Origin: Nemertoderma westbladi
Lineage: Eukaryota > Animalia > Xenacoelomorpha
Reading direction: 5' to 3'
Length of the DNA: 36,843 bases
Assembly (NCBI GenBank): GCA_032718475.1
Contig: JAUCBJ010006908.1
Coordinates: 1-36,843, forward strand
Of this stretch, positions 1 to 36,843 are shown one piece after another. A model generated the notes under the pieces. The model searched no databases and was not told the DNA's origin. It worked only from the letters and a program-made list of their open reading frames with translations. Position numbers and translations under genes: made by a program. Positions within the stretch are counted from its first letter, which is position 1; each line of letters begins with the position of its first letter.

Positions 1-2
1 CA

Positions 3-1529
3 GCCTCAAAAAGTACCGGTCTAGATCTAATACCTGCCCGTTTTCTTAAGGATGGTGCTGAAGTACTTAAAGTGCCTATTACTTTTATTATTAATTACTC
101 TATCGTAGATAATGTAGTACCAGACGAACTGAAATTAGCTAAGGTTGTTCCTCTGTATAAAAAGAATAGTAAAGTAGAACCCTGTAATTACAGACCTGTT
201 AGTATCTTAAGTATTGTATCTAAAATTCTAGAACGTTCTGTTTTTCTACAGCTGGAGGCACATCTTAGTAGGCTAAATCTGATCTATGAACTTCAGTCCG
301 GTTTTCGTAAATCATATTCTACAGACACCTGCCTTATTAACTTAACTGATACAATTAGATGTAATAACGCAAAGGGTTTATATACTGGTATGGTAATGTT
401 GGACCTACAAAAGGCTTTCGATACTGTAGATCACGAAATTCTGCTTGGTAAGTTAGGCCTGATGGGTGTAGGTTCTATAGACTGGTTCAAGTCCTACCTG
501 TCAGACAGAGGTCAAACTGTAGTCATTAGCAAATCGCTGTCTACTGTACAAGAGATTACCTGTGGTGTACCGCAAGGTAGTATATTAGGTCCTCTGCTTT
601 TTGTATGCTATGTAAATGATATGATAAGTAGTATAGATCCCGATTTTAAACTCATTTTATATGCCGACGACAGTGCTCTTATTTTCTCTCATAAAGATCC
701 TATCCATATTTCCCAAAAGTTAAGTGCAGTTCTAGAATCCTGTAATGAGTGGTTGGTTGATAATAAGCTATCCATTCACTACGGTAAGACTGAAAGTATT
801 TTGTTTGGTTCCAAAAGAAAGTTAAAGAAGGTAACTAAGTTTGAAGTCACTAGTAATGGACATAAGATTGAAAATAAAAAGGAAGTTAAATATTTAGGCG
901 CCACATTGGATAACTGCTTATCAGGAGAAAGTACAGTGAAAAATATTTTCTCGAAAGTTAACAGTAGGCTTAGGTTTCTATACAGAAATAAAAATAGTTT
1001 AAACACCGACTCCCGCAAGTTACTTTGCCCTTCTTTAATACAGTGCCACATGGACTATGCGTGCTCTTCTTGGTATGAAGGCTTAACCAAACAGCTTAAA
1101 TGTAAATTACAAGTAGCTCAGAATAAAGTAGTACGATTTATTAAAGACTACAAACCTAGGCACCACCTAACTCCAGATGACTTTTCTGAATCTGGACTAC
1201 TTAACTTAGATAGTAGAGTTAAGCAGCTACGCCTTAACCATGTGCATAAAGTGTATAATGGTAAATGTCCCAATTACCTAAAACAAAAATTCAACAGAGT
1301 ACGCGATACACACTCTTACAGTACCAGAGCTAGTGCTTCAAACTTCTACCTCCCGAATTGTAAATCCTTTGAATCTGATACTTTCTTTTTTAACGGCATA
1401 AAAAATTGGAACGCTCTGCCTAATGAAATTAAAAACCTAAATAATCAACATTCTTTTAAATCTGCAGTTAAATCTCACCTCCGTGTGCAATGTAAAAATA
1501 GGTACAATAGTCCTACAGTAAGTTATTAG
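3..1529 (+). CDS. Reverse transcriptase (ORF2 C-terminal half) of a CR1/L2-group (L2/Crack-like) non-LTR retrotransposon; open from the window edge
   Basis: RT motifs [46 protein letters not shown]. The frame reads through to base 3 ([17 protein letters not shown]), so the true start is upstream of the window. Confidence 0.93.
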
Positions 1530-1853
1530 TTTATTAATTATTTACTATTTATACTGTAATTACGTTTTATAATAAATTGTTCTGTACATTACATCTTTAT
1601 CGTTGAGTCGGGCATTGTCACGCTCTCGGTAAAGTTGTACATGTACATAGTGTAATTACGTTTTATATTGGTTTTAGGTTAGCGTAGTGTAATATTGTAT
1701 TTGTAACCAAGTAACATAAAGGACCCCCTTGGAAATAAGCTGCAAAGCTTTAGGGGTAATCCTATATGTTATGTTGGACAATACCTTTATACCGGTACAT
1801 TGTTTGGTGTATTTGTTATTGTTTTTACATAATGTATAAATAAATCTATCTAT
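1530..1853 (+). mobile_element. 3' UTR and tail of the same LINE
   Basis: Stem-loop GGACCCCCTTGGAAATAAG...TTTAGGGGTAATCC at 1721-1762 resembles the structured 3' ends of L2/CR1-group LINEs. It ends in AATAAATAAATCTATCTAT near 1850. Confidence 0.6.
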
Positions 1854-1985: not shown

Positions 1986-2902
1986 ATGTCCTTAGATCAT
2001 CATAATGATGATGGGGTGATGATAACTCCACCTACTGGCTCCAGAAGTCGAGGAAATCCTGCCAAGTACCTAACTGATCTAGACTTTGCTGATGACTTAG
2101 GAGTACTCGCAGAATCATTAGAGGGAGCCCAACGGCTCCTCAGCTCATTAGAACATGCTGCTTCTAGTGTTGGTCTTTTTATTAACTCCAGAAAGACCAC
2201 AATTTTGACAGTTAACTTTGAAAGTCCTCAGCAAGTCTCTGATCGGATGAGCATAAGCTCAAAGGATGGTATGCTTGAGCATGTGGTCGACTTCTGTTAC
2301 CTGGGATCATGGATCCGGAAGTCAGGTGAGGACCTTCGAATACGTAAGGGAAAGGCATGGGCAGCCTTGAATAGGCTTTCCAGGATTTGGAAGTCACCGA
2401 GAATTAATCGGAAACTTAAGGTCCGATTATTTAGAGCAGCAGTAGTTCCAGTACTCCTCTATGGGAGTCCATGCTGGGCTCTAACTGCTGAGGACACCAA
2501 ATCTCTGGATGGCACATTCACAAGAATGCTACGCCGGGTTCATTGTGTCAAGTACAATTCACACATCTCCAACCAGACACTATATAACATTGGAGGTGTC
2601 TCATTGGTTCCCCCAAGCTTGACACTAGAACAAAATCGCCTCCGCTTTGCAGGACATTGCTTTCGCCGTGAGGACCAGCCAGTGCATAATCTTGTACTTT
2701 GGCAGCCTCATGGAGTGAATAAGCATGGTGGACAGCCCATGACTTTCTTGAGACGCATCTTAAAGGACACTGGCCTTGAAGATGCGGATGATCTAGCAAA
2801 TGTCATGGGTGATAGGGAGTTGTGGCGGTGCAATTTCGTCGATAAGCCGGCACAGCATTCTTAAAAATGCAGCTGCAATGCAGCATGCCGATCCTAGTAG
2901 TA
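1986..2902 (+). mobile_element. 5'-truncated RTE-clade LINE, copy A (RT C-terminal part)
   Basis: DLDFADDL, FCYLGS, LLYGS and RLRFAGHC motifs; short 3' UTR ending GATCC(TAG)n; near-identical to copies at 5252-6477 and 30586-31166. Confidence 0.88.
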
Positions 2903-3236: not shown

Positions 3237-3622
3237 TGTAACAGGCTGAGATAAGTCCCCGCCAGATATAACTCCCCAATCTTCTCTTCTCCATAGATTT
3301 CTTAATTAACGGAAAGGAGCAGGTTACAGTGGCGGGCTTTTCTAACCAAAACAATAAACGATATCTCAATAACATAGGTTACAGTTTTATTTTTGCAATA
3401 TACGGAAATAACACAGGTACGGATATTAATTATAACTCAATTAGGGGAGTCATCTCAGCCTAAGGGGAGTCATCTCAGCCTAAGGGGAGTGTTCTCAGCC
3501 TAGGCTGAGATTACTGGGGAGAGTTCCCAGCCTAGGCTGAGATTACTGGGGAGAGTTCTCAGCCTAGGCTGAGACGACTGAGGAGTCATTTCAATAAGGG
3601 GGAGTTATCTCAGCCTTGTACA
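3237..3622. mobile_element. Non-autonomous DNA transposon (Ginger-like MITE) with TGT...ACA ends
   Basis: ~24-bp imperfect TIR (TGTAACAGGCTGAGATAAGTCCCC / GGGGAGTTATCTCAGCCTTGTACA), flanked by CCAG (3233-3236) and CCGG (3623-3626). Internal tandem and palindromic copies of the TIR core (CTCAGCCTAGGCTGAG) at 3441-3585. Confidence 0.6.
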
Positions 3623-4048
3623 CCGGGTTTTAGACATTTTAACTTTAAGACCGAGACTGGGTTTTAGTCATTAAATTTTTAGGACCGCGAGTTTATAGAC
3701 CGGGTTTTAGGAATTATTGGGAAGCCTCCTACTGTCTGACTGTCCTACTGCAGTACTGCTGTACTGTGTGTGCCTACTTCTGTACTGCAGTACTGCCTGA
3801 CTAGGCCAACTTGCTGACAAGACTGCAATACGATTACGAGATTAGGCCTACTGGATTACTGATACATATCAGCATATAGGTGATAGGCTATAGGCAATAC
3901 TCAATCTGGCAATAGGACAACCACAGTACAGCAGTACCTGACAGTGGCACCTGGATTCTGTCTGTCTGTGTGCTGGCTGGCTGCTGTACTGACAGACTGA
4001 CTGGCAGGAAACACATCGGTCTGTCGGTAGCCTAACATAACATTAACA

Positions 4049-4509
4049 ATGAATTCCTCCACCATCTCCCAAGACACGTCCAAAACCGATAAACTTCTTA
4101 CAAAGATCTCGGCTACTGTCGACGCTGGTGCGTTTTACGAGGCCCACCAGATGTACCGGTCGCTGTACTTCCGATATACGCAACAGAGGCGCCATAACGC
4201 CGCCCTACACCTAGCCGCTGGCGGCGCTGTCAGACTGCTAACAAACGGACAAACATCAAGTGGAGGCGACTTGGCGTTACTATCAATAGACGCGTTGAAT
4301 AACGGCAAATACTCGGTTTGTTCCGAAACTCTGGGTATTATTGAGTCTGTGTTTAAACTTATTGGTTCGGAGGAATGTTTGGAGAGACAGCGGTATATAA
4401 AATCGGTAGTGGACTGGTCTAACTCTAATGACACTGCTTATGGACACCCAGATGTCCATAAAGTGTTGGCGGACACTTTGTGGGACGGGAAATGTTTCCT
4501 GGAAGCAAG
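4049..4509 (+). CDS. GET4: Golgi to ER traffic protein 4 homolog (GET4/TRC35), exon 1
   Basis: G-x-FYEAHQMYRSLYFRY, SGGDLA and YGHPDVH motifs of the GET4 family. Ends at the strong donor AAG|GTAAGT (GT at 4510), phase 2. Confidence 0.93.
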
Positions 4510-4874
4510 GTAAGTCTGTAAGTGGGAAAATATTCAGTTGGGATCAGTTCACTGGTTCATAGAGATTTGAATTCCTTCTGTCTGTCAGTGTCAGTTCTTC
4601 TTGCTGCCTTTATGACTTTACCTTGGAATTGTTTTACCGGTACCTGTCTGCCTGTATTGTTGTATTGATAATTTTACATCAAAAAATAAAAAAAAAATTT
4701 AAATTTTGGATACCGGGTTGTCTCAAATATATGCAGATATGCACCGCTATGGGCAATGGGCGCTATGTACTGACGTACAGTAATTTGAATTTCATGATAC
4801 AAATTACAGCAATAATATATGACGGGAATTTTAACAGGAGATAATTTATACCTAAGACCAGACCTCACCACCAC

Positions 4875-5045
4875 AATACTAGAGGAAACTCCCTAAAGCT
4901 ACGCAAACAGGCCCTCAATATGAACTTGCTCGTTTGCAAAAACTTATTCGCAAACCGAGTGGTATACGTCTGGAACCAGTTACCCAACGATGTTGTAACC
5001 GCGACCACCGTGAATGCTTTTAAAATAGGGCCCGATCGCTTCATG
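4875..5045 (+). mobile_element. Degenerate 3' fragment of a CR1-type LINE
   Basis: TRGNSLKL followed, after a frameshift, by FANRVVYVWNQLPNDVVTATTVNAFK, the typical CR1 ORF2 C-terminus. Confidence 0.75.
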
Positions 5046-5251
5046 CCAACTATTATGAACATTTATGACGACTTACTCAAGATAACAGCCTTTTATTTTC
5101 AGTTGACAGATATTTCTTTTAAGTAATTATTTCATTTTATTTCCATTAAACTTTTAACCCTTGATACATACCTATAGTATATCTTAATTTTTATCGAATT
5201 TTATTTATATTTTATTTCCACACCTATGATTTTTATACATCTACACATCTA

Positions 5252-6477
5252 TACATTGGCACTTAGAAGGATAATTGAAGAGTTATCAAAAAAGAAAGAC
5301 AGGCATCTGGCTGTTATCTTTGTTGACTTCTTCAAGGCCTTTGATTCAGTCTCTCGCTCACGTATGTTCAGTATACTTTCATTATATGGGATTCCTGATG
5401 AAATTATTGCATCAATCAGATCAGTATACGATGGTTCGACAACATTTGTGTCTACTGTTGATGGTGACACAGAACCATTTGAAGTGTTATGGGGTGTCCT
5501 CCAGGGAGACACACTTGCACCATTCTTGTTCATAATTGTCGTTGACTATGTTCTACGCATGTCCTTAGATCATCATATTGATGATGGGGTGATGATAACT
5601 CCACCTACTGGCTCCAGAAGTCGAGGAAATCCTGCCAAGTACCTAACTGATCTAGACTTTGCTAATGACTTAGGAGTACTATCAGAATCATTAGAGGGAG
5701 CCCAACGGCTCCTCAGCTCATTAGAACAGGCTGCTTCTAGTGTTGGTCTTTTTATTAACTCCAGAAAGACCAAAATTTTGACAGTTCACTTTGAAAGTCC
5801 TCAGCAAGTCTCTGATCGGATGAGCATAAGCTCAAAAGATGGTATGCTTGAGCATGTGGATGACTTATGTTACCTGGGATCATGGATCCGGAAGTCAGGT
5901 GAGGACCTTCGAATACGTAAGGGAAAGGCATGGGCAGCCTTGAATAGGCTTTCCAGGATTTGGAAGTCACCTAGAATTAATCGGAAACTTAAGGTCCGAT
6001 TATTTAGAGCAGCAGTAGTTCCAGTACTCCTCTACGGGAGTCCATGCTGGGCTCTAACTGCTGAGGACACCAAATCTCTGGATGGCACATTCACAAGAAT
6101 GCTACACCGGGTACATTGTGTCAAGTACAATGCACACATCTCCAACCAGACACTATATAACATTGGAGGTGTCTCATTGGTTCCCCCAAGCTTGACACTA
6201 GAACAAAATCGCCTCCGCTTTGCAGGACATTGCTTTCGCCGTGAGGACCAGCCAGTGCATAATCTTGTACTTTGGCAGCCTCATGGAGTGAATAAGCATG
6301 GTGGACAGCCCATGACTTTCTTGAGACGCATCTTAAAGGACACTGGCCTTAAAGATGCGGATGATCTAGCAAATGTCATGGGTAATAGGGAGTTGTGGCG
6401 GTGCAATTTTGTTGACAAGCCGGCACAGCATTCTTGAAAATGCAGCTGCAATGCAGCATGCCGATCCTAGTAGTAGT
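5252..6477 (+). mobile_element. 5'-truncated RTE-clade LINE, copy B
   Basis: LALRRIIE, FVDFFKAFDSV, GVLQGDTLAPFLF; catalytic FADD is mutated to FAND; ends GATCCTAGTAGTAGT. Confidence 0.9.
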
Positions 6478-8040
6478 TTTCGTTTGGGTTTCTGGGGGAT
6501 ATGCCTCTTAGCTGATTCCTTGTGGGCTGTTATTATATTCTGGTATATTGAATCGGTGGATTGGTCTTCATCCATTGACTGAAGTGCTTCAAAGCGGTTT
6601 TGAATTTATACTGTATAAGCATCCTTTACAGCATTATCAGTTCTGAGTTTCTTCCAGTCATATTTGATTTGCTTGCTTGTCCAGGGTTTGCTGGCTCTCA
6701 AACTGAGTCTGATCTCTGCAGTCACAATTCTGTGGTCCGAACCAATTAGGTTGAACGAGCTGTATGCCTCGCAGTTGATCATGCTGTTTCTCCACTTTTT
6801 GTTTATAAGGATGTAATCCAGTTGTGCTTTGGTTCCATTAGGGTATTGAAAGGTACATAGCTTCCCCTTACTTTTTTCGAATATGTTGTTTGTTGGTATC
6901 AATTCACATTCTTCCATTAGGTCTAAAAGTAAGTACCCATTTCTGTTAGAACTGGTGTTATAGGTGTAACCCTTGATGTCTTCTGGGCCAATTTGCGCAT
7001 TCAGGTCACCAGCAATGACTTTAACATTGTGTTTCGGAATATCCTTAATAAGTCCAGTCAGTTCTTCATAAAACTTGACTGCTTGTTCTGGCTCTGAGGC
7101 ATTGGTTGGACTGTAGCAACATATAACTGTTGCCTTGGGATTCCCATCAAATGTTGCGATCATAACCCTGGAATTTATAGATTCGATGTTGTTTGGGGTC
7201 TTGAGTGCAAATGGGCTTAGCAGAATTCCTACTCCACCAATTGATGCATTGGCCGAGTTTCTTACTGCTGAGCTTGTTACTAACGTCCATCCATTTCCAA
7301 TGTCATTGTACTTCATGGCAGTGTCTTCTTGACAAATCCGATGTTCTTGGATGTAGATGATGTCGATGTTATATTCCATTGCCAGAGCAACCATGTCACC
7401 CTGTTTGCTCTGTGCTTTCAGCGTGCGTGCGTTCATTGTAGCAATCTTTAGTGTCTTTTTACATTTCAACAGGTTGGTTCTTCTTTCTTCTCGGTCTTCT
7501 GTTCCAGTAGCCAATTTATCGACCCCAGCCTGGTGTACCACTGAGGGACGCGGTCCTTGTTGACCCGGGCGACGACCGAGCCGGTATTTATCCTGGAGGG
7601 TTCTCATACTCATATCTTTCAGTTGCGAGAGAAAACCGCTTGTGGTCGCAACTCCTACAAGCGTCTTCGCAGTAGGTCGCCGTTGGTTGATCACCTTCCG
7701 CCGACCTTGTCAGCATGTCTAGCCGTTGGTTGATTACCTTCCGCCTATCCATGGCCTGCTGCCGACTGTAGGGGTCCTTTTGTTACACCCTGAACCAAGT
7801 GTGCCTCCTGGGTTAGGTTACCTAACACTGGTAGAGGAGCATCCAGTATAGATATAGTATAGATAGTATCATCTCTAATGCAGATGCGTATCAAGCCTTT
7901 GCCTTCAATGGTGCCCTAGGCGCTATAGCCCTCAATGACTTATTTAGTTGACAGGGCTGAACCAACCCACTCTTGATCAACTAAATAATGAATAGGCTAT
8001 GCTTATCGGGCCTGCCCTACTGGGCTGACAGCTACAGGTA
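6478..8040 (-). mobile_element. 5' half of an RTE-like LINE: 5' UTR, APE endonuclease and linker, pseudogenised and truncated
   Basis: APE motifs ATMNARTL, IQEHR, YSPT, GDLNA, LDYIL, SDH in 7694-6606. The frame continues past a TAA at 6608-6606 (IQNRFEALQSMDED...PKRK) to the junction at 6478. The 5' boundary is approximate. Confidence 0.85.
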
Positions 8041-9369
8041 GTACCACATTACTGCCATAGTGGTAGCAGGATCTGGGGACCTGACCTGACCTGACCTGCG
8101 ACCTAATGCCTGACCTGCCCTAATGCCTGTGACCTGATCTAATGACATCATTTCACAGGATTTCCACCAATCAGGAATCAAATGACAGGCCTGGAATGTA
8201 TTTTGCGTTTTTCTCAAAACTATGTAAAAATGAGATAGACGGTTTCGGCATTTAAGGGCCGAACTGCGTAACTTGCCAGCCATTGCGAAAAACAAATTGT
8301 TTATAATATCTGAATATGTATAAGTACATATCTTGGTGCAATGCAGACTGTATAACAGAACGTGTATATATTACATTACAGTACGTACGTAAATTACCTT
8401 CATGTATTGAAATTTAATTTTATTGTAATTTTCTCCTAATCATGGATTATCTTTATTTCTGTCATTTGTGTTTGTATGTTTGACTTTTGAGATATATTTT
8501 TATTGATACTGGCTCATCTGTGTTTGTATGTTTGACTTTTATTGTCCTATACTTAAACTAAACAAAACTAAGACCTGTGGTCAGCAGCTATATAAAGGTG
8601 GAATTTATTGCATGAAATATTGCAGTTTATTATTATAATTAGGCCTAAGTAAAAATAATATTTCGACTCAGTCAGCAGGATAATTCTGGTGTTTTAGTTG
8701 TCTTGTCTGAAAACTGAGAAGAAATTTTTTATTTGCAACATATTAAAGTCAACCGATAAAAATTAAACTATTTATCGCATGGTAATAAAATTCTGATTTA
8801 CCAAAGAGCCAGCCATAAGTGAAAAGATTTTATTACCAAGAGGGCCTGATATCCTTATCCCCTTAGGGCCTTTCCCCTTATTTTATTTTACTAATTGTTA
8901 TGTTTTTTTTGGGAACTGACGCTGGAAGGAACTGAATTCAACAGATAATTCGAACTGAAACCGAAATTAGTAAAATTTTGTTTCCGTTTACAACCCTATC
9001 TGTAGCTGTAGACTTACACTCCAAAATTATTACTTCGTATCGATTTAATGGAGAATATTACTGAAGGCCACGAAAGATTTCTCCAGTTAACAGTAACTAC
9101 TTCATTTCCATTTTCAATTACATACTTTATTTTCCTCTGCGGGTACGATGTCATGCTTTATTGCACTCCCCAGTTAACATTACACACTTTATTTTTCTTT
9201 TCAGGTACCATTACGCACTTTATTTCTGTCTCTAGGTACCATTACACCATACACTATTTCCCTCTCCAGATAACAATAAATACATTATTCCCATGCACCA
9301 TTACATACTTTATTTCCTTGCCCATGCACCATTACATACTCTGTGTCCTTCCCCAGGTACCATTACACA

Positions 9370-10914
9370 CTTTATTTCCTTCCCCAGGTACCATTACATA
9401 CTTTATTTCCTTGACCAGGTACCATTATATACTTTATATAACAAAACTTACTGACAGAAAGTAAATTATTTGTTCTAGAACAAAAATATTTATTTTATTT
9501 TTTTTTATTTTATTATTTTATTTTATTTGTTCTAGAATAAAAAACACATGATATATATATAATAGCCATTTTCACAAGAAAAAATTATAAAAAATTTTCA
9601 AATTTAATTTTTTTCACTAGCTAAAAAAGTACTAGCCAACACAAAATCAAAATTATTAGCTCTCCCTACCATCCTACTGTCAGAAGGTCAAATATTTGAT
9701 ATGGAAAAAAAACCTCATGATAAAAACCTTTTTCATGTGAAAACAATTGGTAAAACTATGGGTACCCAAGGTGTACGTACCAATGCCTTTATACCCCTCC
9801 CCAGGTACCATTACATACTTTTTTCCTTCCCCACGTACCATTACGTACGTTATTTCCTTCCCCAGATACCATTACATACTTTATTTCCTTCCCCAGGTAC
9901 CATTACATAACTTTATTTCCTTCCCCAGGTACCATTATCTACTTTATATCTTTCCCCGGGTACAATTACATAACTTTTTTTCTTTCTCCAGGTACCATTA
10001 CATACTTTATTCCTTTCCCCAGGTACCATTATCTTCTTTATTTCCTACCCCAGGTACCATTACATTCTTTATTTCCTTCCCCAGGTACCATTATCTACAT
10101 TATTTCCTTACCCTGGTACCATTACATTCTTTATTTCCTTCCCCAGGTACCATTACATACTTTATTTCCTTGACCAGGTACCATTATATACTTTATATAA
10201 CAAAACTTACTGACAGAAAGTAAATTATTTGTTCTAGAACAAAAATATTTATTTTATTTTTTTTTATTTTATTATTTTATTTTATTTGTTCTAGAATAAA
10301 AAACACATGATATATATATAATAGCCATTTTCACAAGAAAAAATTATAAAAAATTTTCAAATTTAATTTTTTTCACTAGCTAAAAAAGTACTAGCCAACA
10401 CAAAATCAAAATTATTAGCTCTCCCTACCATCCTACTGTCAGAAGGTCAAATATTTGATATGGAAAAAAAACCTCATGATAAAAACCTTTTTCATGTGAA
10501 AACAATTGGTAAAACTATGGGTACCCAAGGTGTACGTACCAATGCCTTTATACCCCTCCCCAGGTACCATTACATACTTTTTTCCTTCCCCACGTACCAT
10601 TACGTACGTTATTTCCTTCCCCAGATACCATTACATACTTTATTTCCTTCCCCAGGTACCATTACATAACTTTATTTCCTTCCCCAGGTACCATTATCTA
10701 CTTTATATCTTTCCCCGGGTACAATTACATAACTTTTTTTCCTTCTCCAGGTACCATTACATACTTTATTCCTTTCCCCAGGTACCATTATCTTCTTTAT
10801 TTCCTACCCCAGGTACCATTACATTCTTTATTTCCTTCCCCAGGTACCATTATCTACATTATTTCCTTACCCTGGTACCATTACATTCTTTATTTCCTTC
10901 CCCAGGTACCATTA
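9370..10914 (+). repeat. 759-bp near-perfect tandem segmental duplication within the array
   Basis: Identical ORF translations at 9701 and 10460, and at 9747 and 10506 (offset 759); sequences match from about 9370/10129 to 10155/10914. Confidence 0.93.
9439..9786. mobile_element. 348-bp AT-rich insertion with 7-bp direct repeats (second copy 10198-10545)
   Basis: Interrupts one 31-bp unit and is flanked by CTTTATA at 9432-9438 and 9787-9793. No TIR or poly(A) seen, so the class is unknown. Confidence 0.5.
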
Positions 10915-12858
10915 TCTACTTTATTTCCTTCCCCGGGAACCATTACATTTTTTATTTCCTTCCCCAGGCACGATTATCTACTTTATTTCCTTCCCCAGGT
11001 ACCATTACATTCTTCATTTCCTTCCCCAGGTGCGATTATCTACTTTATTTCCTTCCCCAGGTACCATTACATTCTTTATTTCCTTCCCCATGTACCATTA
11101 CATACTTTATTACATTCCCAAGGGACCATTTCATACTTTATTTCATTCCCCAGGTACCATTACATTCTTTATTTCCTTCCCCAGGTACCATTATATACTT
11201 TATTTCCTTCCCTAGGTACCATTATCTACTTTATTTCCTTCCCCTGGTAACATTATCTACTTTATTTCCTTCCCCGGGTACCATTATCTACTTTATTTCC
11301 TTCCCCAGGTACCATTATATACTTTATTTCCTTCCCCTGGTAACATTATCTACTTTATTTCCTTCCCCGGGTACCATTATCTACTTTATTTCCTTCCCCA
11401 GGTACCATTATATACTTTATTTCCTTCCCCTGGTAACATTATCTACTTTATCTCCTTCCCCAGGTACCATTACATTCTTTATTTCCTTCCCCGGGTACCA
11501 TTATCTACTTTATTTCCTTCCCCAGGTACCATTATATACTTTATTTCCTTCCCCTGGTAACATTATCTACTTTATTTCCTTCCCCTGGTAACATTATCTA
11601 CTTTATTTCCTTCCCCGGGTACCATTATCTACTTTATTTTCTTCCACAGGTACCATTATATACTTTATTTCCTTCCCCTGGTAACATTATCTACTTTATT
11701 TCCTTCCCCTGGTAACATTATCTACTTTATTTCCTTCCCCGGGTACCATTATCTACTTTATCTCCTTCCCCAGGTACCATTACATTCTTTATTTCCTTCC
11801 CCGGGTACCATTATCTACTTTACTTCCTTCCCCAGGTACCATTATATACTTTATTTCCTTCCCCTGGTAACATTATATACTTTATTTCCTTCCCCTGGTA
11901 ACATTATCTACTTTATTTCCTTCCCCGGGTACCATTATCTACTTTATCTCCTTCCCCAGGTACCATTACATTCATTTTTTCCTTCCCCGGGTACCATTAT
12001 CTACTTTATTTCCTTCCCCTGGTAACATTATCTACTTTATTTCCTTCCCCTGGTAACATTATCTACATTATTTCCTTCCCCGGGTACCATTATCTACTTT
12101 ATTTCCTTCCCCAGGTACCAATATATACTTTATTTCCTTCCCCTGGTAACATTATCTACTTTATTTCCTTCCCCAGGTACCATTACATTCTTTATTTCCT
12201 TCCCCTGGTACCATTATATACTTTATTTCCTTCCCTAGGTACCATTATATACTTTATTTCCTTCCCCTGGTAACATTATATACTTTATTTCCTTCCCCGG
12301 GTACCATTATCTACTTTATTTCCTTCCCCAGGTACCATTATATACTTTATTTCCTTCCCCTGGTAACATTATCTACTTTATTTCCTTCCCCGGGTACCAT
12401 TATCTACTTTATTTCCTTCCCCAGGTACCATTATATACTTTATTTCCTTCCCCTGGTAACATTATCTACTTTATTTCCTTCCCCAGGTACCTTTACATTC
12501 TTTATTTCCTTCCCCGGGTACCATTATCTACTTTATTTCCTTTCCCAGGTACCATTATATACTTTATTTCCTTCCCCTGGTAACATTATCTACTTTATTT
12601 CCTTCCCCTGGTAACATTATCTACTTTATTTCCTTCCCCGGGTACCATTATATACTTTATTTCCTTCGCTAGGTACCATTATATACTTTATTTCCTTCCC
12701 CTGGTAACATTATCTACTTTATTTCCTTCCCCAGGTACCATTACATTCTTTATTTCCTTCCCCTGGTACCATTATGTACTTTAATTCCTTCCCCAGGTAC
12801 CATTATATACTTTATTTCCTTCCCCTGGTAACATTATCTACTTTATTTCCTTCCCCAG

Positions 12859-13387
12859 GTACCATTACATACACTCCAACGACGGTGTTTCCTGCGGTTC
12901 CCTACTGGTAGAATTCTCCCTCCTTAACGGTTTCCCCAGCGAGACCGATCTATTTATCACCCAGGCTGTCCTGCAGTACCTCTGTCTCTACAAACGCGAA
13001 CCAGCCAGGCTATGCTTTGTTACCTATACCAATAAACACCCCGTGGTTACCTTAGAAACACCCCCTTCTACCCCTCCTAACTACTCTCTCCCGTTACTCA
13101 ACTTTATTTCCCTGCTACTAATGGCTATCGAGGGAGGTAAACTAACTGTTTTTACCATCCTTTGCGAGGCATACCGCCCTGAGTTACAATATCGGGATCG
13201 TTGCTACGCCGATTACTTGCAGCGGATTGGTCAGCTGTTTTTTGGTCTGGAGTCCCAGTCGCAGACACCAAGGGGCGGTTCTGGTCTCCTAGACGCCTTC
13301 ATGACCTCCAGAGCTACACCAACCGAGACCTCTAGACCCCAACGCCCTCTGGCGACTGTAATAACAACTGATGAAGATTTCGATTAA
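12859..13387 (+). CDS. GET4: GET4 exon 2 (terminal coding exon)
   Basis: YHYIHSNDG..LVEF..GFPSETDLFITQAVLQYLCL..YTNKHP..PLLNF..F.ILCEAY.P..YLQRIGQLFFG; in frame with ORF 13043-13387. Confidence 0.93.
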
Positions 13388-13388
13388 A

Positions 13389-13394
13389 AATAAA
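13389..13394 (+). promoter_or_regulatory. Candidate polyadenylation signal of GET4
   Basis: AATAAA immediately after the stop codon, followed by a T/GT-rich tract. Confidence 0.5.
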
Positions 13395-13879
13395 ATTAAC
13401 TTATTTTGACTTGTAGTTTTTAACGGTTTATTGGTTTTCCTTTAATTTAATTTCAATATATTTTGATTAAAATTATGTGGTTTTAAGTGTTAAATCGCAA
13501 TTCTTTTGGTATTTGATATTTTACATCTACATCTGTGAATATATTAATATAAACAGATTCAGAATGAAAAATTGAATCGATTGCAATATTTTAAGCAAAG
13601 TAAGTTTTAAGGGGGGGGGGGGGGGGGGGGGGGGCTGTGTGTTATCCCCCCACTAATCACGAAGTACAAATCACTGGTAGGCTTACACAGAGGACAGACC
13701 AACTAGGTTTGTTTTGAGACTGTATTTAAAGCGATCAGGTTTACCTAACAAATGCAAATTTATTTGAATTTCTAATTTGAATTTCCGTAGGCCTACTTAT
13801 TCGCTATTGGATCTTACTGTTTAAACGGGATCCCTATCACGAAAAACCGGGATCCCGGTGAAAAAATCCCGATACTAAC

Positions 13880-16390
13880 TAGTGAGCTTGCCTACTTAGA
13901 TAGTGAGTTAGTTTGTGAGTGTTACCCGCAGTGAACTTAGATAGTGAGTTAGTTTGTGAGTGTTACCAGCAGTTGAGCTTGCCTACTTAGTAGTGAGTTA
14001 GTTTGTGAGTGTTACCCGCAGTTGAGCTTGCCTACTTAGTAGTGAGTTAGTTTGAGAGTGTTACCCGCAGTGAACTTAGTAGTGAGTTAGTTTGTGAGTG
14101 TTACCCGCAGTTGAGCTTGCCTACTTAGTAGTGAGTTAGTTTGTGAGTGTTACCCGCAGTGAACTTGGTAGTGAGTTAGTTTGTGAGTGTTACCGGCAGT
14201 GAACTTAGTAGTGAGTTAGTTTGTGAGTGTTACCCGCAGTTGAGCTTGCCTACTTAGTAGTGAGTTAGTTTGTGAGTGTTACCCGCAGTGAACTTAGTAG
14301 TGAGTTAGTTTGTGAGTGTTACCCGCAGTGAACTTAGTAGTGAGTTAGTTTGTGAGTGTTACCCGCAGTTGAGCTTGCCTACTTGGTAGTGAGTTAGTTT
14401 GTGAGTGTTACCCGCAGTGAACTTAGTAGTGAGTTAGTTTGTGAGTGTTACCCGCAGTTGAGCTTGCCTACTTAGTAGTGAGTTAGTTTGTGAGTGTTAC
14501 CCGCAGTTGAGCTTGCCTACTTAGTAGTGAGTTAGTTTGTGAGTGTTACCCGCAGTTGAGCTTGCCTACTTAGTAGTGAGTTAGTTTGTGAGTGTTACCC
14601 GCAGTTGAGACTTAGTAGTGAGTTAGTTTGTGAGTGTTACCCGCAGTGAACTTAGTAGTGAGTTAGTTTGTGAGTGTTACCCGCAGTTGAGCTTGCCTAC
14701 TTAGTAGTGAGTTAGTTTGTGAGTGTTACCCGCAGTGAACTTAGTAGTGAGTTAGTTTGTGAGTGTTACCCGCAGTTGAGCTTGCCTACTTAGTAGTGAG
14801 TTAGTTTGTGAGTGTTACCCGCAGTGAACTTAGTAGTGAGTTAGTTTGTGAGTGTTACCCGCAGTTGAGCTTGCCTACTTAGTAGTGAGTTTGTTTGTGA
14901 GTGTTACCCTCAGTTGAGCTTGCCTACTTAGTAGTGAGTTAGTTTGTGAGTGTTACCCGCAGTGAACTTAGTAGTGAGTTAGTTTGTGAGTGTTACCCGC
15001 AGTGAACTTAGTAGTGAGTTAGTTTGTGAGTGTTACCCGCAGTTGAGCTTGCCTACTTAGTAGTGAGTTAGTTTGTGAGTGTTACCCGCAGTGAACTTAG
15101 TAGTGAGTTAGTTTGTGAGTGTTACCCGCAGTTGAGCTTGCCTACTTAGTAGTGAGTTAGTTTGTGAGTGTTACCCGCAGTTGAGCTTGCCTACTTAGTA
15201 GTGAGTTAGTTTGTGAGTGTTACCCGCAGTTGAGCTTGCCTACTTAGTAGTGAGTTAGTTTGTGAGTGTTACCCGCAGTGACCACTTAGTAGTGAGTTAG
15301 TTTGTGAGTGTTACCCGCAGTGAACTTAGTAGTGAGTTAGTTTGTGAGTGTTACCCGCAGTTGAGCTTGCCTACTTGGTAGTGAGTTAGTTTGTGAGTGT
15401 TACCCGCAGTGAACTTAGTAGTGAGTTAGTTTGTGAGTGTTACCCGCAGTTGAGCTTGCCTACTTGGTAGTGAGTTAGTTTGTGAGTGTTACCCGCAGTG
15501 AACTAGCATACAATGGTAAGTTAGTGCAATATAATCAACCATCAGTAGAGCTGCACTTACAAGCATTTAGTTAAGAAATCAAGTCACATTAACGCAAAGA
15601 GATACAAACGTTAAGTAAAAGAGATATTAACGTTAATGTTGAGTGTCTACCAGATAGTGAACTTAGTAGTGAGTTAGTTTGTGAGTGTTACCCGCAGTTG
15701 AGCTTGCCTACTTAGTAGTGAGTTAGTTTGTGAGTGTTACCCGCAGTTGAGCTTGCCTACTAAGTAGTGAGTTAGTTTGTGAGTGTTACCCGCAGTTGAG
15801 CTTGCCTACTTAGTAGTGAGTTAGTTTGTGAGTGTTACCCGCAGTTGAGCTTGCCTACTAAGTAGTGAGTTAGTTTGTGAGTGTTACCCGCAGTTGAGAT
15901 TGCCTACTTAGTAGTGAGTTAGTTTGTGAGTGTTACCCACAGTTGAGCTTGCCTACTTAGTAGTGAGTTAGTTTGTGAGTGTTACCCGCAGTTGAGCTTG
16001 CTTACTTAGTAGTGAGTTAGTTTGTGAGTGTTACCAGCAGTTGAGCTTGCCTACTTAGATAGTGAGTTAGTTTGTGAGTGTTACCCACAGTTGAGCTTGC
16101 CTACTTAGTAGTGAGTTAGTTTGTGAGTGTTACCCGCAGTTGTGCTTGCTTACTTAGTAGTGAGTTAGTTTGTGAGTGTTACCAGCAGTTGAGCTTGCCT
16201 ACTTAGATAGTGAGTTAGTTTGTGAGTGTTACCCGCAGTTGAGCTTGCCTACTTAGATGGTGAGTTAGTTTGTGAGTGTTACCCGCAGTGAACTTAGTAG
16301 TGAGTTAGTTTGTGAGTGTTACCCGCAGTTGAGCTTGCCTACTTAGTAGTGAGTTAGTTTGTGAGTGTTACCCGCAGTTGAGCTTGCCTA
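13880..16390. repeat. Satellite with interspersed 49-bp and 40-bp units (TAGTAGTGAGTTAGTTTGTGAGTGTTACCCGCAGT+TGAGCTTGCCTACT or +GAACT), interrupted by a unique ~150 bp at 15506-15657
   Basis: Read directly from the sequence. Confidence 0.95.
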
Positions 16391-18669: not shown

Positions 18670-21600
18670 TGTTGTGACGGGATCCAACGGAGTTGGCAGT
18701 ATGAATCCCGACCGGTGTGTGTTATACGCGTCGTCGCGTCACGGAGTTGGCAGTATGGATCCCGACCGGTGTGTGTTATACGCGTCGCCGCGTCCGTGAC
18801 GGGATCCAACGGAGTTGGCAGTATGAATCCCGACCGGTGTGTGTTATACGCGTCGCCGCGTCCGTGACGGGATCCAATGGAGTTGGCAGTATGAATCCCG
18901 ACCGGTGTGTGTTATACGCGTCGCCGCGTCCGTGACGGGATCCAATGGAGTTGGCAGTATGAATCCCGACCGGTGTGTGTTATACGCGTCGCCGCGTCCG
19001 TACGGGATCCAACGGAGTTGGCAGTATGAATCCCGACCGGTGTGTGTTATACGCGTCGTCGCGTCACGGAGTTGGCAGTATGGATCCCGACCGGTGTGTG
19101 TTATACGCGTCGCCGCGTCCGTGACGGGATCCAATGGAGTTGGCAGTATGAATCCCGACCGGTGTGCGTTATACGCGTCGCCGCGTCCGTGACGGGATCC
19201 AATGGAGTTGGCAGTATGAATCCCGACCGGTGTGTGTTATACGCGTCGCCGCGTCCGTGACGGGATCCAACGGAGTTGGCAGTATGAATCCCGACCGGTG
19301 TGTGTTATACGCGTCGCCGCGTCACAGAGTTGGCAGTATGGATCCCGACCGGTGTGTGTTATACGCGTCGCCGCGTCCGTGACGGGATCCAACGGAGTTG
19401 GCAGTATGAATCCCGACCGGTGTGTGTTATACGCGTCGCCGCGTCCGTGACGGGATCCAACGGAGTTGGCAGTATGAATCCCGACCGGTGTGTGTTATAC
19501 GCGTCGCCGCGTCCGTGACGGGATCCAACGGAGTTGGCAGTATGAATCCCGACCGGTGTGTGTTATACGCGTCGCCGCGTCCGTGACGGGATCCAACGGA
19601 GTTGGCAGTATGAATCCCGACCGGTGTGTGTTATACGCGTCGCCGCGTCACAGAGTTGGCAGTATGGATCCCGACCGGTGTGTGTTATACGCGTCGCCGC
19701 GTCCGTGACGGGATCCAACGGAGTTGGCAGTATGAATCCCGACCGGTGTGTGTTATACGCGTCGCCGCGTCCGTGACGGGATCCAACGGAGTTGGCAGTA
19801 TGAATCCCGACCGGTGTGTGTTATACGCGTCGCCGCGTCCGTGACGGGATCCAACGGAGTTGGCAGTATGGATCCCGACCGGTGTGTGTTATACGCGTCG
19901 CCGCGTCCGTGACGGGATCCAACGGAGTTGGCAGTATGAATCCCGACCGGTGTGTGTTATACGCGTCGCCGCGTCCGTGACGGGATCCAACGGAGTTGGC
20001 AGTATGAATCCCGACCGGAGTGTGTTATACGCGTCGCCGCGTCCGTGACGGGATCCAACGGAGTTGGCAGTATGAATCCCGACCGGAGTGTGTTATACGC
20101 GTCGCCGCGTCCGTGACGGGATCCAACGGAGTTGGCAGTATGAATCCCGACCGGTGTTTGTGTTATACGCGTCGCCGCGTCACGGAGTTGGCAGTATGGA
20201 TCCCGACCGGTGTGTGTTATACGCGTCGCCGCGTCCGTGACGGGATCCAACGGAGTTGGCAGTATGAATCCCGACCGGTGTGTGTTATACGCGTCGCCGC
20301 GTCCGTGACGGGATCCAACGGAGTTGGCAGTATGAATCCCGACCGGTGTGTGTTATACGCGTCGCCGCGTCCGTGACGGGATCCAACGGAGTTGGCAGTA
20401 TGAATCCCGACCGGTGTGTGTTATACGCGTCGCCGCGTCCGTGACGGGATCCAACGGAGTTGGCAGTATGAATCCCGACCGGTGTGTGTTATACGCATCG
20501 CCGCGTCACGGAGTTGGCAGTATGGATCCCGACCGGTGTGTGTTATACGCGTCGCCGCGTCCGTGACGGGATCCAACGGAGTTGGCAGTATGAATCCCGA
20601 CCGGTGTGTGTTATACGCGTCGCCGCGTCCGTGACGGGATCCAACGGAGTTGGCAGTATGAATCCCGACCGGTGTGTGTTATACGCGTCGCCGCGTCCGT
20701 ACGGGATCCAACGGAGTTGGCAGTATGGATCCCGACCGGTGTGTGTTATACGCGTCGCCGCGTCCGTGACGGGATCCAACGGAGTTGGCAGTATGAATCC
20801 CGACCGGTGTGTGTTATACGCGTCGCCGCGTCCGTGACGGGATCCAACGGAGTTGGAAGTATGGATCCCGACCGGTGTGTGTTATACGCGTCGCCGCGTC
20901 CGTACGGGATCCAACGGAGTTGGCAGTATGGATCCCGACCGGTGTGTGTTATACGCGTCGCCCCGTCCGTGACGGGATCCAACGGAGTTGGCAGTATGAA
21001 TCCCGACCGGTGTGTGTTATACGCGTCGTCGCGTCACGGAGTTGGCAGTATGGATCCCAACCGGTGTGTGTTATACGCGTCGCCCCGTCCGTGACGGGAT
21101 CCAACGGAGTTGGCAGTATGAATCCCGACCGGTGTGTGTTATACGCGTCGCCGCGTCCGTGACGGGATCCAACGGAGTTGGCAGTATGAATCCCGACCGG
21201 TGTGTGTTATACGCGTCGCCGCGTCCGTGACGGGATCCAACGGAGTTGGCAGTATGAATCCCGACCGGTGTGTGTTATACGCGTCGCCGCGTCCGTGACG
21301 GGATCCAACGGAGTTGGCAGTATGGATCCCGACCGGTGTGTGTTATACGCGTCGCCGCGTCCGTACGGGATCCAACGGAGTTGGCAGTATGGATCCCGAC
21401 CGGTGTGTGTTATACGCGTCGCCCCGTCCGTGACGGGATCCAACGGAGTTGGCAGTATGAATCCCGACCGGTGTGTGTTATACGCGTCGTCGCGTCACGG
21501 AGTTGGCAGTATGGATCCCAACCGGTGTGTGTTATACGCGTCGCCCCGTCCGTGACGGGATCCAACGGAGTTGGCAGTATGAATCCCGACCGGTGTGTGT

Positions 21601-24600
21601 TATACGCATCGCCGCGTCCGTGACGGGATCCAATGGAGTTGGCAGTATGAATCCCGACCGGTGTGTGTTATACGCGTCGCCCCGTCCGTGACGGGATCCA
21701 ACGGAGTTGGCAGTATGAATCCCGACCGGTGTTTGTGTTATACGCGTCGCCGCGTCACGGAGTTGGCAGTATGAATCCCGACCGGTGTGTGTTATACGCG
21801 TCGCCGCGTCCGTGACGGGATCCAACGGAGTTGGCAGTATGAATCCCGACCGGTGTGTGTTATACGCGTCGCCGCGTCTGTGACGGGATCCAACGGAGTT
21901 GGCAGTATGGATCCCGACCGGTGTGTGTTATACGCGTCGCCGCGTCCGTGACGGGATCCAACGGAGTTGGCAGTATGAATCCCGACCGGTGTGTGTTATA
22001 CGCGTCGCCGCGTCACGGAGTTGGCAGTATGGATCCCGACCGGTGTGTGTTATACGCGTCGCCGCGTCTGTGACGGGATCCAACGGAGTTGGCAGTATGG
22101 ATCCCGACCGGTGTGTGTTATACGCGTCGCCGCGTCCGTGACGGGATCCAACGGAGTTGGCAGTATGAATCCCGACCGGTGTGTGTTATACGCGTCGCCG
22201 CGTCACGGAGTTGGCAGTATGGATCCCGACCGGTGTGTGTTATACGCGTCGCCGCGTCCGTGACGGGATCCAACGGAGTTGGCAGTATGGATCCCGACCG
22301 GTGTGTGTTATACGCGTCGCCGCGTCCGTGACGGGATCCAACGGAGTTGGCAGTATGAATCCCGACCGGTGTGTGTTATACGCGTCGCCGCGTCATGGAG
22401 TTGGCAGTATGGATCCCGACCGGTGTGTGTTATACGCGTCGCCGCGTCCGTGACGGGATCCAACGGAGTTGGCAGTATGAATCCCGACCGGTGTGTGTTA
22501 TACGCGTCGCCGCGTCCGTGACGGGATCCAACGGAGTTGGCAGTATGAATCCCGACCGGTGTGTGTTATACGCGTCGCCGCGTCCGTGACGGGATCCAAC
22601 GGAGTTGGCAGTATGAATCCCGACCGGTGTGTGTTATACGCGTCGCCGCGTCCGTGACGGGATCCAACGGAGTTGGCAGTATGAATCCCGACCGGTGTGT
22701 GTTATACGCGTCGCCGCGTCCGTGACGGGATCCAACGGAGTTGGCAGTATGAATCCCGACCGGAGTGTGTTATACGCGTCGCCGCGTCCGTGACGGGATC
22801 CAACGGAGTTGGCAGTATGGATCCCGACCAGTGTGTGTTATACGCGTCGCCCCTTCTGTGACGGGATCCAACGGAGTTGGCAGTATGAATCCCGACCGGA
22901 GTGTGTTATACGCGTCGCCGCGTCCGTGACGGGATCCAACGGAGTTGGCAGTATGGATCCCGACCGGTGTGTGTTATACGCGTCGCCGCGTCACGGAGTT
23001 GGCAGTATGGATCCCGACCGGTGTGTGTTATACGCGTCGCCGCGTATGTGACGGGATCCAACGGAGTTGGCAGTATGAATCCCGACCGGTGTGTGTTATA
23101 CGCGTCGCCGCGTCCGTGACGGGATCCAACGGAGTTGGCAGTATGAATCCCGACCGGTGTGTGTTATACGCGTCGCCCCGTCCGTGACGGGATCCAACGG
23201 AGTTGGCAGTATGGATCCCGACCGGTGTGTGTTATACGCGTCGCCGCGTCCGTGACGGGATCCAACGGAGTTGGCAGTATGGATCCCGACCGGTGTGTGT
23301 TATACGCGTCGCCGCGTCCGTGACGGGATCCAACGGAGTTGGCAGTATGGATCCCGACCGGTGTGTGTTATACACGTCCCCGCGTCCGTGACGGGATCCA
23401 ACGGAGTTGGCAGTATGAATCCCGACCGGTGTGTGTTATACGCGTCGCCGCGTCCGTGACGGGATCCAACGGAGTTGGCAGTATGGATCCCGACCGGTGT
23501 GTGTTATACGCGTCGCCGCGTCCGTGACGGGATCCAACGGAGTTGGCAGTATGGATCCCGACCGGTGTGTGTTATACGCGTCGCCGCGTCCGTGACGGGA
23601 TCCAACGGAGTTGGCAGTATGAATCCCGACCGGTGTGTGTTATACGCGTCGCCGCGTCACGGAGTTGGCAGTATGAATCCCGACCGGTGTGTGTTATACG
23701 CGTCGCCGAGTCCGTGACGGGATCCAACGGAGTTGGCAGTATGAATCCCGACCGGTGTGTGTTATACGCGTCGCCGCGTCACGGAGTTGGCAGTATGGAT
23801 CCCGACCGGTGTGTGTTATACGCGTCGCCGCGTCCGTGACGGGATCCAACGGAGTTGGCAGTATGGATCCCGACCGGTGTGTGTTATACGCGTCGCCGCG
23901 TCACGGAGTTGGCAGTATGGATCCCGACCGGTGTGTGTTATACGCGTCGCCGCGTCCGTGACGGGATCCAACGGAGTTGGCAGTATGGATCCCGACCGGT
24001 GTGTGTTATACGCGTCGCCGCGTCACGGAGTTGGCAGTATGGATCCCGACCGGTGTGTGTTATACGCGTCGCCGCGTCCGTGACGGGATCCAACGGAGTT
24101 GGCAGTATGAATCCCGACCGGTGTGTGTTATACGCGTCGCCGCGTCCGTGACGGGATCCAACGGAGTTGGCAGTATGAATCCCGACCAGAGTGTGTTATA
24201 CGCGTCGCCGCGTCCGTGACGGGATCCAACGGAGTTGGCAGTATGAATCCCGACCGGAGTGTGTTATACGCGTCGCCGCGTCCGTGACGGGATCCAACGG
24301 AGTTGGCAGTATGAATCCCGACCAGAGTGTGTTATACGCGTCGCCGCGTCCGTGACGGGATCCAACGGAGTTGGCAGTATGAATCCCGACCGGAGTGTGT
24401 TATACGCGTCGCCGCGTCCGTGACGGGATCCAACGGAGTTGGCAGTATGAATCCCGACCGGTGTGTGTTATACGCGTCGCCGCGTCCGTGACGGGATCCA
24501 ACGGAGTTGGCAGTATGAATCCCGACCGGTGTGTGTTATACGCGTCGCCGCGTCCGTGACGGGATCCAACGGAGTTGGCAGTATGAATCCCGACCAGAGT

Positions 24601-36658: not shown

Positions 36659-36843
36659 ATCTGCTATACGAGTTCACCAATATTATAATGAGTTTATATA
36701 TTTATTAGGCGAGCGGGCGTCGCTGCCTACTTCTCCCTTGCCCCCGGACAGTATGAGATTCTCAGCGCCGATGTACCGCTGTCGCTATACTTTCGCCAAC
36801 GACGTAGCCGTACAACGACAACGATAACCGGCACAAGTCACTC

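What the first reader, a model, noticed from the sequence alone, without database searches (positions are those of the whole stretch)
9085..12871. GET4 intron ends in ~100 tandem copies of its own 3' splice site, each intact copy an AG|GT ratchet-like junction
Seen: the 31-bp unit is the polypyrimidine tract + CAG + the first ~12 nt of exon 2 (GTACCATTACAT). Only the last copy continues into GET4 coding sequence, and units become more degenerate with distance from the exon. Because 31 is not a multiple of 3 and many units carry TAA, stopping at an upstream decoy would break a conserved gene. Established: recursive splicing uses AG|GT ratchet points. Inference: since exon 2 starts with GT, splicing exon 1 (...AAG) to any decoy regenerates a donor-like AAG|GTACCA, so the array could be removed stepwise. 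That would be a self-correcting splice-site satellite, and would explain why it was tolerated and expanded.
Basis: partly seen in the sequence, partly recalled or inferred. Interest (0 to 1): 0.85.

Follow-up and report, generated by a model that had tools for sequence, protein, structure and literature searches.

The report
GET4 splice-acceptor "mirage" minisatellite
The single coding intron of an animal GET4 gene ends in about 100 head-to-tail copies of its own intron-exon border, only about half of which keep the splice signal; this repeat type is already known from lancelets, and the cell likely splices straight to the last copy rather than stepping through the array.

Summary
The array is real: about 99 copies of a 31-bp unit (17-nt acceptor plus the first 14 nt of GET4 exon 2), in three blocks split by a duplicated 354-bp insert. 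The 4509/12859 join gives a 329-aa GET4 colinear with the human protein.

Only 51 of 95 spare copies keep AG and 46 read AG|GT. AG is kept in 33 of 43 distal copies but 18 of 52 proximal ones, the reverse of the stated gradient (selection test P 0.09-0.12). Stopping at any decoy truncates GET4.

This is a lancelet-type 'mirage'. The published globin example also starts AG|GT and carries AG-to-GG copies. The scan has noted many such arrays, several larger, in this genome and others.

The ratchet idea is untested and weakly supported. The regenerated donor matches consensus at 5 of 9 positions (true donor 8 of 9), and the T of the GT is the first base of a conserved tyrosine codon. Most likely the last copy is chosen by exon context. 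No RNA run was listed. Side finding: the intron position is absent from 76 homologous loci.

The parts
4049..4509 (+). GET4 exon 1 coding part (153 codons + 2 nt, phase 2)
4510..4515 (+). Authentic donor GTAAGT (8 of 9 positions match the recalled consensus)
4510..12858 (+). The only intron in the coding region, 8349 nt; its position is not shared with 76 homologous loci
5178..6437 (+). Non-LTR retrotransposon reverse-transcriptase fragment inside the intron
6606..7709 (-). Non-LTR retrotransposon endonuclease fragment inside the intron
9070..9156 (+). Three strongly degenerate outermost units (17-22 of 31 matches to the real junction)
9117..9437 (+). Array block A, about 10.5 units, most diverged; AG kept in 6 of 8 anchored units
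9437..9790 (+). 354-bp AT-rich insert, copy 1 (contains AATAAA at 9536)
9370..10914 (+). 786-bp segment duplicated at offset 759 with 1 mismatch (9370-10155 against 10129-10914); recent unequal crossover or assembly error
9787..10196 (+). Array block B, 13 units; AG kept in 10 of 13
10196..10549 (+). 354-bp insert, copy 2 (100% identical to copy 1)
10546..11229 (+). Main block, distal part, 22 units; AG kept in 17 of 22
11230..12841 (+). Main block, proximal part, 52 units: 18 AG, 21 TG, 13 GG; no two intact AGs adjacent; higher-order periodicity of 3-4 units
12811..12841 (+). Penultimate unit, CTG|GTAAC type: AG lost, and a branch-point-like TAAC puts an A at -28 of the real acceptor (motif recalled, use untested)
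12842..12872 (+). Authentic intron/exon-2 junction, the template of the repeat unit (CAG at 12856-12858)
12859..13387 (+). GET4 exon 2 coding part through the TAA stop
13389..13394 (+). AATAAA directly after the stop; candidate polyadenylation signal

Best explanation
The array is a 'mirage' minisatellite made of copies of the last 17 nt of the intron plus the first 14 nt of GET4 exon 2; it was likely amplified by slippage and unequal crossing-over, and exon 1 is likely spliced in one step to the last copy because only that copy is followed by a full terminal exon. SHOWN: unit anatomy, copy number, the variant pattern, and that only the 4509/12859 join yields full-length GET4. INFERRED: amplification by ordinary repeat turnover (higher-order repeats, a 786-bp duplication, a diverged outer edge). 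INFERRED: selection of the last AG by downstream context (exonic enhancers plus the poly(A) signal). Intronic signals cannot discriminate, since three decoys are identical to the real acceptor for 55-74 nt upstream. INFERRED: AG|GT is incidental, coming from an Arg-Tyr codon pair at a proto-splice site; rare mis-splicing is lost as truncated product. Possibly mild selection has favoured AG-dead copies near the exon.
For: Anatomy and counts. Protein colinearity with human GET4. Decoys at 12487, 12735 and 12177 share 74, 64 and 55 nt upstream with the real AG but diverge within 5-12 nt downstream. Mirage precedent with normal splicing although many copies hold AG/GT (PMC3087553 passages; PMC3902484 passage). 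The BflGb6 supplement shows AG|GT at the junction and CGG in 3 of 6 copies of haplotype 1. In human CBS 844ins68, a duplicated intron 7/exon 8 junction, the distal site is strongly favoured (PMC2630376 passage; that text says 'donor', while the title of its cited paper says 3' splice site). The regenerated donor is weak. The EJC represses regenerated donors (PMC6224609 and PMC8184009 passages). None of 45 homologous acceptors tested had a second copy of itself.
Against: One-step use of the last AG is inferred from protein homology and precedent, and a mature junction could not tell one-step from stepwise removal. Weak AGGT sites in tandem repeats are used as both donor and acceptor in human UBC (PMC10809524 passages). 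Very weak regenerated sites can work when the EJC is absent, and EJC repression of recursion appears weaker in Drosophila. The decoys are transcribed up to 3.7 kb before the real site. Enhancer content of exon 2 was not tested; it is only modestly richer in G than the array (19% against 7%). One unchecked note reports use of an internal copy in a donor array of this genome.
Confidence: 0.68

Rival explanations
1. Stepwise or nested removal. Exon 1 often joins a decoy AG, or an internal unit junction acts as donor, and the dual AG|GT sites let a further round of splicing reach exon 2, so errors correct themselves.
For: 46 of 95 spare copies are AG|GT. The only copy that could not be rescued, 31 nt upstream and below the roughly 65-nt threshold of human introns (PMC4463651 passages), is AG-dead. 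In the proximal 53 units no two intact AGs are adjacent: spacings are 62 (10 times), 93 (4), 124 (4) and 155 (1), with 0 adjacent pairs against 6.5 expected. Each decoy has downstream GT sites that could define a short recursive-splicing exon, as Drosophila ratchet points require. Dual-use AGGT arrays exist in UBC.
Against: The donor is weak (5 of 9). In the distal part 21 of 32 spacings are 31-32 nt. The GG units are never adjacent either (0 observed, 2.9 expected), so higher-order repeat ancestry can explain the spacing. A dead penultimate copy has a prior of about 34 in 52. The 19 proximal CTG|GTAAC units are better donors (6 of 9) but carry no AG, so using one as a donor would lock in a frameshift; their spread argues that the array is rarely read. 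The same donor sits at the mature junction next to an in-frame exonic AG.
Confidence: 0.15
2. Leaky decoys under purifying selection. A real fraction of transcripts ends at decoy AGs or includes array pseudo-exons and is wasted or degraded. Selection has therefore spread AG-killing variants near the exon and converted the penultimate copy into a branch-point donor.
For: Two different substitutions at the same invariant A (A>T 23 copies, A>G 16) are among the six commonest variants. AG is kept in 18 of 52 proximal against 33 of 43 distal copies (Fisher P 7e-5, but units are not independent). The same A>G change spread in the lancelet array. 81 in-frame, stop-free pseudo-exons of up to 300 nt are possible on paper, and AATAAA lies at 9275, 9536 and 10295.
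Against: The number of distinct alleles at AG is as expected (4 against 3.7), and the permutation test of their amplification gives P 0.09-0.12. Both changes perfect a short palindrome (an 8-mer and a 6-mer), so mutational bias is a neutral alternative. Perfect decoys persist at -62 and -124.
Confidence: 0.13
3. The array, or much of it, is an assembly artefact.
For: The 786-bp duplication differs at only 1 base. No reads were available to check it.
Against: There are 20 distinct unit haplotypes among the 53 proximal units, in an irregular higher-order pattern, and 58 distinct variant alleles with a diverged outer edge. Mis-assembly does not create these. At most the extra 759 bp could be spurious.
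Confidence: 0.04

Closest known systems
Amphioxus 'mirage' minisatellites: globin BflGb6/BflGb9 (PMC3087553: 6 passages and supplementary file 4 read); PGBD5, Adh3, troponin C (PMC3902484: 1 passage read; the original Adh3 paper was not seen)
   Same: Tandem copies spanning an intron 3' end and the start of the next exon, upstream of the real exon. Many but not all copies keep the splice signal. BflGb6 also begins AG|GT and has AG-to-GG copies inside the cluster. Boundary copies are excluded from homogenisation. The unit length lies within the 10-72 bp given for Adh3.
   Different: About 99 copies against 3-6 in BflGb6. Higher-order structure and a duplicated insert. Normal splicing and length polymorphism were shown there and could not be tested here.
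Human CBS c.844_845ins68 (PMC2630376, passages read)
   Same: Duplicated intron/exon acceptor junction; the distal site is strongly preferred and normal mRNA results.
   Different: Two copies of 68 bp, not a minisatellite; mechanism studied experimentally.
Dual-specific AGGT splice sites in tandem repeats, human UBC and VCX3A (PMC10809524, passages read)
   Different: There the units are coding and 228 nt (a multiple of 3), and use of the sites is shown by RT-PCR. Here the units are 31 nt and intronic, any retained stretch truncates the protein, and use is not shown.
Recursive-splicing ratchet points and RS-exons of Drosophila and human (PMC8605326, PMC6224609, passages read)
   Same: Acceptor directly followed by GT, with further GT sites within about 100 nt downstream.
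   Different: Known sites are single, conserved, lie in long introns and have strong donors that outcompete the downstream donor. Here there are 46 weak copies at 31-nt spacing that came from duplication.
[quoted passage not shown]
   Same: The intron sits at a lineage-specific position, at an AG|GT with AGGTA at both intron ends.
   Different: The intron start does not resemble the exon-2 start (P 1.0). The unit's intronic half shares only a 6-mer with the end of exon 1 (post hoc P 0.014). The array looks like a later growth on an existing acceptor, not the birth event.

Membership tests
Mirage minisatellite | Head-to-tail tandem repeats of minisatellite size | tested here: met
   31-bp period, about 99 copies
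Mirage minisatellite | Unit spans an exon-intron boundary of the host gene | tested here: met
   17 intronic + 14 exonic nt of the 12858/12859 junction; codes (R)YHYI
Mirage minisatellite | The authentic boundary is the terminal copy next to the intact exon | tested here: met
   Only the last copy gives full-length GET4; 0 of 51 AG decoys do
Mirage minisatellite | Many but not all copies keep the splice dinucleotide | tested here: met
   51 of 95 keep AG
Mirage minisatellite | Concerted evolution with diverged boundary copies | tested here: met
   Shared variants and 3-4-unit periodicity inside, a degenerate outer edge
Mirage minisatellite | Normal mRNA is still made | not testable with these tools
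   No RNA data in hand for this gene; the reading frames are intact
Mirage minisatellite | Length polymorphism between alleles | not testable with these tools
   One haplotype only; no genome or reads
Recursive-splicing ratchet point | Acceptor immediately followed by GT | tested here: met
   46 of 95 spare copies
Recursive-splicing ratchet point | Strong regenerated donor that outcompetes downstream donors | tested here: not met
   5 of 9 consensus matches, 1 of 4 at +3..+6; unit-borne donors score 5-6 of 9; true donor 8 of 9. Crude match count to a recalled consensus, no species-specific model
Recursive-splicing ratchet point | Cryptic RS-exon: a downstream donor within about 100 nt | tested here: inconclusive
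   GT junctions recur every 31 nt but all are weak
Recursive-splicing ratchet point | Evolutionary conservation of the site | not testable with these tools
   No close relative found (best 57% for exon 2, up to 48% over partial matches for exon 1); homologous loci lack this intron
Recursive-splicing ratchet point | Intermediate junction reads, saw-tooth coverage, lariats starting at the site | not testable with these tools
   No RNA data in hand
[quoted passage not shown] | Novel intron position at AG|GT | tested here: met
   0 of 76 homologous loci have an intron at this codon; 44 have one 22 nt upstream
[quoted passage not shown] | Intron sequence resembles the flanking exons at both ends | tested here: not met
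   Intron start against exon-2 start P 1.0; acceptor against exon-1 end one shared 6-mer, post hoc P 0.014

The most novel reading that the evidence does not exclude
Splicing reads this array and has shaped its sequence. Dual-use AG|GT copies let mis-spliced transcripts be re-spliced to exon 2, and selection has purged exactly the arrangements that cannot be rescued. Near the exon every intact AG lies at least 62 nt from the next, and the copy 31 nt upstream has lost its AG and gained a branch-point motif. Mirages would then be splicing ladders with rungs tuned to the minimum intron size.
Probability: 0.12. Interest if true: 0.7.

Novelty: new member of a known kind. Interest (0 to 1): 0.27.

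Why it matters
As it most likely stands, this is one more tolerated mirage in a genome that has many, so it adds little by itself. Its value is as a natural reporter. Its 51 near-identical acceptors can be told apart by unit variants, three match the real site for 55-74 nt upstream, and there is no downstream intron, so exon definition, first-come splicing and recursive rescue make different predictions in one RNA experiment. If AG-killing variants prove enriched near the exon across many arrays, selection on splicing fidelity would be shown acting on satellite turnover. If stepwise removal were shown, it would be a route by which recursive splice sites arise by duplication.

Tried and rejected
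RNA and genome evidence: no genome is held for this window, so the genome-wide GT-enrichment test could not be run. One search for sequencing runs with exon 2 listed no RNA holder; this is not evidence either way, and no reads could be laid. No near-identical protein spanning the junction turned up: best 57% identity among 17 longer and 55% among 4 similar-length hits, and up to 48% among the 150 listed of 409 representatives. The organism was not identified.

Structure: Rfam found 0 matches in 4000-14000. The last 10 units plus the exon start fold no better than shuffles (z -0.63), so structural masking of decoys is not supported.

Selection on AG: the Fisher contrast is inflated by shared ancestry, and the allele-level permutation was not significant (P 0.09-0.12). 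The lack of adjacent intact AGs (P 3e-5 under random order) is weakened by the same lack for GG units (P 0.02) and by higher-order periodicity. Of 19 TAAC units with a following junction, 14 precede a dead acceptor, 4 a decoy CAG and 1 the real one; this was not tested for significance and is similar to the zone average.

Other origins: birth of the intron from this array was considered and not supported. A dispersed satellite supplying the acceptor was rejected because the unit encodes conserved GET4 residues and has no copy elsewhere in the window.

Script errors: my first script put the exon-1 end one base late, corrected. The automatic intron-position count gave 45. By eye I removed L024 and L025 (continuous coding) and added L056 (CAG with an upstream stop), giving 44. 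One locus (L052) aligned with gaps and three (L077, L078, L080) did not cover the site; these were left out of the 76.

Literature: searches found no paper testing recursive splicing or selection on AG in mirages. The library holds open-licence papers only, and the original Adh3 mirage paper was not seen. One search found no paper on GET4 exon structure.
Full report
1. The gene. Window 4049-4509 and 12859-13387 encode the two halves of GET4. Pfam PF04190 positions 1-104 and 110-256 are matched (E 3.9e-18 and 2.2e-31). Against human GET4 (PDB 7ru9 chain C), exon-1 residue 151 aligns to residue 166 and exon-2 residue 1 to residue 170, which is the register given by a phase-2 join of 4509 to 12859. 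The product is 329 aa and the intron 8349 nt, with donor AAG|GTAAGT. An AATAAA follows the stop at 13389. Named hits to exon 2 are animal proteins at 43-57% identity and no close relative was found, so the organism is an unidentified animal.

2. The array. TRF gives three blocks of period 31: 9117-9437 (10.5 copies), 9787-10196 (13.2) and 10546-12872 (75.0). The unit is the real junction, 12842-12872: 17 intronic bases ending in CAG and 14 exonic bases. The exonic half codes (R)YHYI, a motif also seen in mollusc GET4, and the unit has no copy elsewhere in the window, so the repeat came from the gene. The blocks are separated by two identical 354-bp inserts, part of a 786-bp duplication with one mismatch. 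Twenty haplotypes among the 53 proximal units and a 3-4-unit periodicity argue that the array is biological; only the recent duplication could be an assembly error.

3. Of 95 anchored spare copies, 51 keep AG and 46 read AG|GT. Rare variants do increase outward (0.12 per unit proximally, 1.75 in the outermost block), but mismatch to the real junction is flat (2.8-2.9) except in that block (5.5). AG integrity runs the other way: 33 of 43 distal against 18 of 52 proximal copies, because A>T (23 copies) and A>G (16) at the invariant A have spread. The harm claim holds: stopping at any of the 51 decoys truncates the protein. As this is the only coding intron, such stops would have no downstream exon junction, and only long-3'-UTR decay could act (own knowledge).

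4. Is AG loss selected? It is suggestive only. Distinct alleles at AG number 4 against 3.7 expected, and their amplification gives P 0.09-0.12. Both changes perfect short palindromes, which offers a neutral source. In the proximal zone no two intact AGs are adjacent (0 against 6.5 expected), but GG units are also never adjacent (0 against 2.9), so higher-order ancestry can explain it. In the distal part 21 of 32 spacings are 31-32 nt. The penultimate copy is CTG|GTAAC: it lacks AG and puts a branch-point-like TAAC at -28 (motif recalled). Chance gives a dead copy there about two times in three.

5. How is the right AG found? Three decoys are identical to the real acceptor for 74, 64 and 55 nt upstream and diverge within 5-12 nt downstream. 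Branch point, pyrimidine tract and AG therefore cannot discriminate: either downstream context does, or errors are repaired afterwards. The region forms no unusual RNA structure (z -0.63) and holds no Rfam family. I favour one-step selection of the last copy by exon and terminal-exon definition (0.68). Precedents are lancelet mirages, which are reported to splice normally, and human CBS 844ins68, where the distal duplicated site is strongly favoured. This step is inferred, not shown.

6. The ratchet model. In favour: 46 AG|GT copies, GT sites downstream of each decoy that could define a short RS-exon, proven dual use of weak AGGT sites in the UBC array, activity of weak regenerated sites without the EJC, weaker EJC repression in Drosophila, and a dead copy at the one distance (31 nt) too short to re-splice by human standards. 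Against: the regenerated donor matches the recalled consensus at 5 of 9 positions against 8 of 9 for the true donor, and unit-borne donors score 5-6 of 9, whereas efficient recursion needs a strong donor that outcompetes downstream ones. The 19 proximal CTG|GTAAC units would be irreversible traps if used as donors. The same donor is formed at the correct junction, with an in-frame exonic AG 81 nt away. The T of the GT belongs to a conserved Tyr codon, and AGGT occurs at this codon pair in 8 of 76 homologues that have no intron there. I put material stepwise removal at 0.15 and leak with selection at 0.13.

7. Intron position. A metagenome scan returned 80 GET4 loci, the best of 99 confirmed. 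In 76 the region around the junction is uninterrupted. Of these, 44 (after three manual corrections to the 45 counted) have an intron 22 nt upstream, which this gene lacks; the other 32 are continuous there and many look like mRNA contigs. Many loci are near-duplicates (about 29 distinct contexts) and their organisms were not determined. None of the 45 acceptors tested had a second copy of itself. The intron here is thus lineage-specific and sits at a proto-splice site, but its 5' end does not resemble exon 2 (P 1.0) and the acceptor shares only a 6-mer with the end of exon 1 (post hoc P 0.014). The array is best read as later growth on an existing acceptor.

8. Comparison and novelty. [quoted passage not shown] BflGb6 begins AG|GT and three of its six haplotype-1 copies have CGG, so the AG|GT feature and the A>G knockout are already present in the known family. 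Five defining features were met here; normal mRNA and length polymorphism could not be tested. Membership among ratchet points fails on donor strength by a crude score. I took the name 'mirage' and its two papers from earlier scan notes and checked the papers myself. Those notes list many similar and larger arrays in this genome (TFG, aconitase, Nup210, carbonic anhydrase, NF-kB, DHX9 and others) and in an annelid and a comb jelly. They are unchecked; one reports use of an internal donor copy. Searches found no paper testing recursion or selection on AG in mirages, within an open-licence library that did not return the original Adh3 study. Other papers (PMC3902484, PMC2630376, PMC10809524, PMC8605326, PMC6224609, PMC8184009, PMC4463651, PMC2891723) were read as term-matched passages only; their supplements were not opened.

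9. Verdict. A real feature and a new member of a known kind, interest 0.27. The boldest reading not excluded is a splicing ladder whose sequence has been tuned to the minimum intron size (probability 0.12, interest 0.7 if true).

Noticed in passing
window 4049-13387: This GET4 has one coding intron, at a position found in 0 of 76 homologous loci, and lacks the intron that 44 of those loci (about 29 distinct sequences) carry 22 nt upstream. It may be a retrocopy or a product of intron loss, followed by a gain at an AG|GT site.
   Followed up: partly
window 12938-12939: Acceptor-like AG inside exon 2, 81 nt after the junction and in frame; a possible target for re-splicing from the regenerated donor.
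   Followed up: no
window 9275, 9536, 10295: AATAAA hexamers inside the array region could give distal decoys a terminal-exon partner and so a truncated isoform; AT-rich context, may be chance.
   Followed up: no
window 9437-9790 and 10196-10549: 354-bp AT-rich insert present twice, with only short weak matches elsewhere in the window; origin unknown.
   Followed up: partly
window 13935-16390: Second satellite with mixed units of about 40 and 49 bp, 53 copies by TRF, starting 550 bp after the GET4 stop; no link to a splice site sought.
   Followed up: no
window 18687-30253: 11.5-kb GC-rich satellite of mixed 54- and 68-bp units (TRF: 175 copies at period 68).
   Followed up: no
window 1986-2902, 5250-6480, 30586-31166: Three copies of one non-LTR retrotransposon 3' part, 97-98% identical to the intronic copy, suggesting recent activity.
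   Followed up: partly
window 32405-36673, minus strand: Three closely packed uninterrupted ORFs (305, 159 and 870 aa) with no Pfam match; may belong to a large mobile or virus-derived element.
   Followed up: partly
window 1-1530: By eye, the decayed 3' part of a different non-LTR retrotransposon (recalled motif, not searched).
   Followed up: no
window 3443-3585: Short 20- and 32-bp tandem repeats about 500 bp upstream of the GET4 start codon.
   Followed up: no
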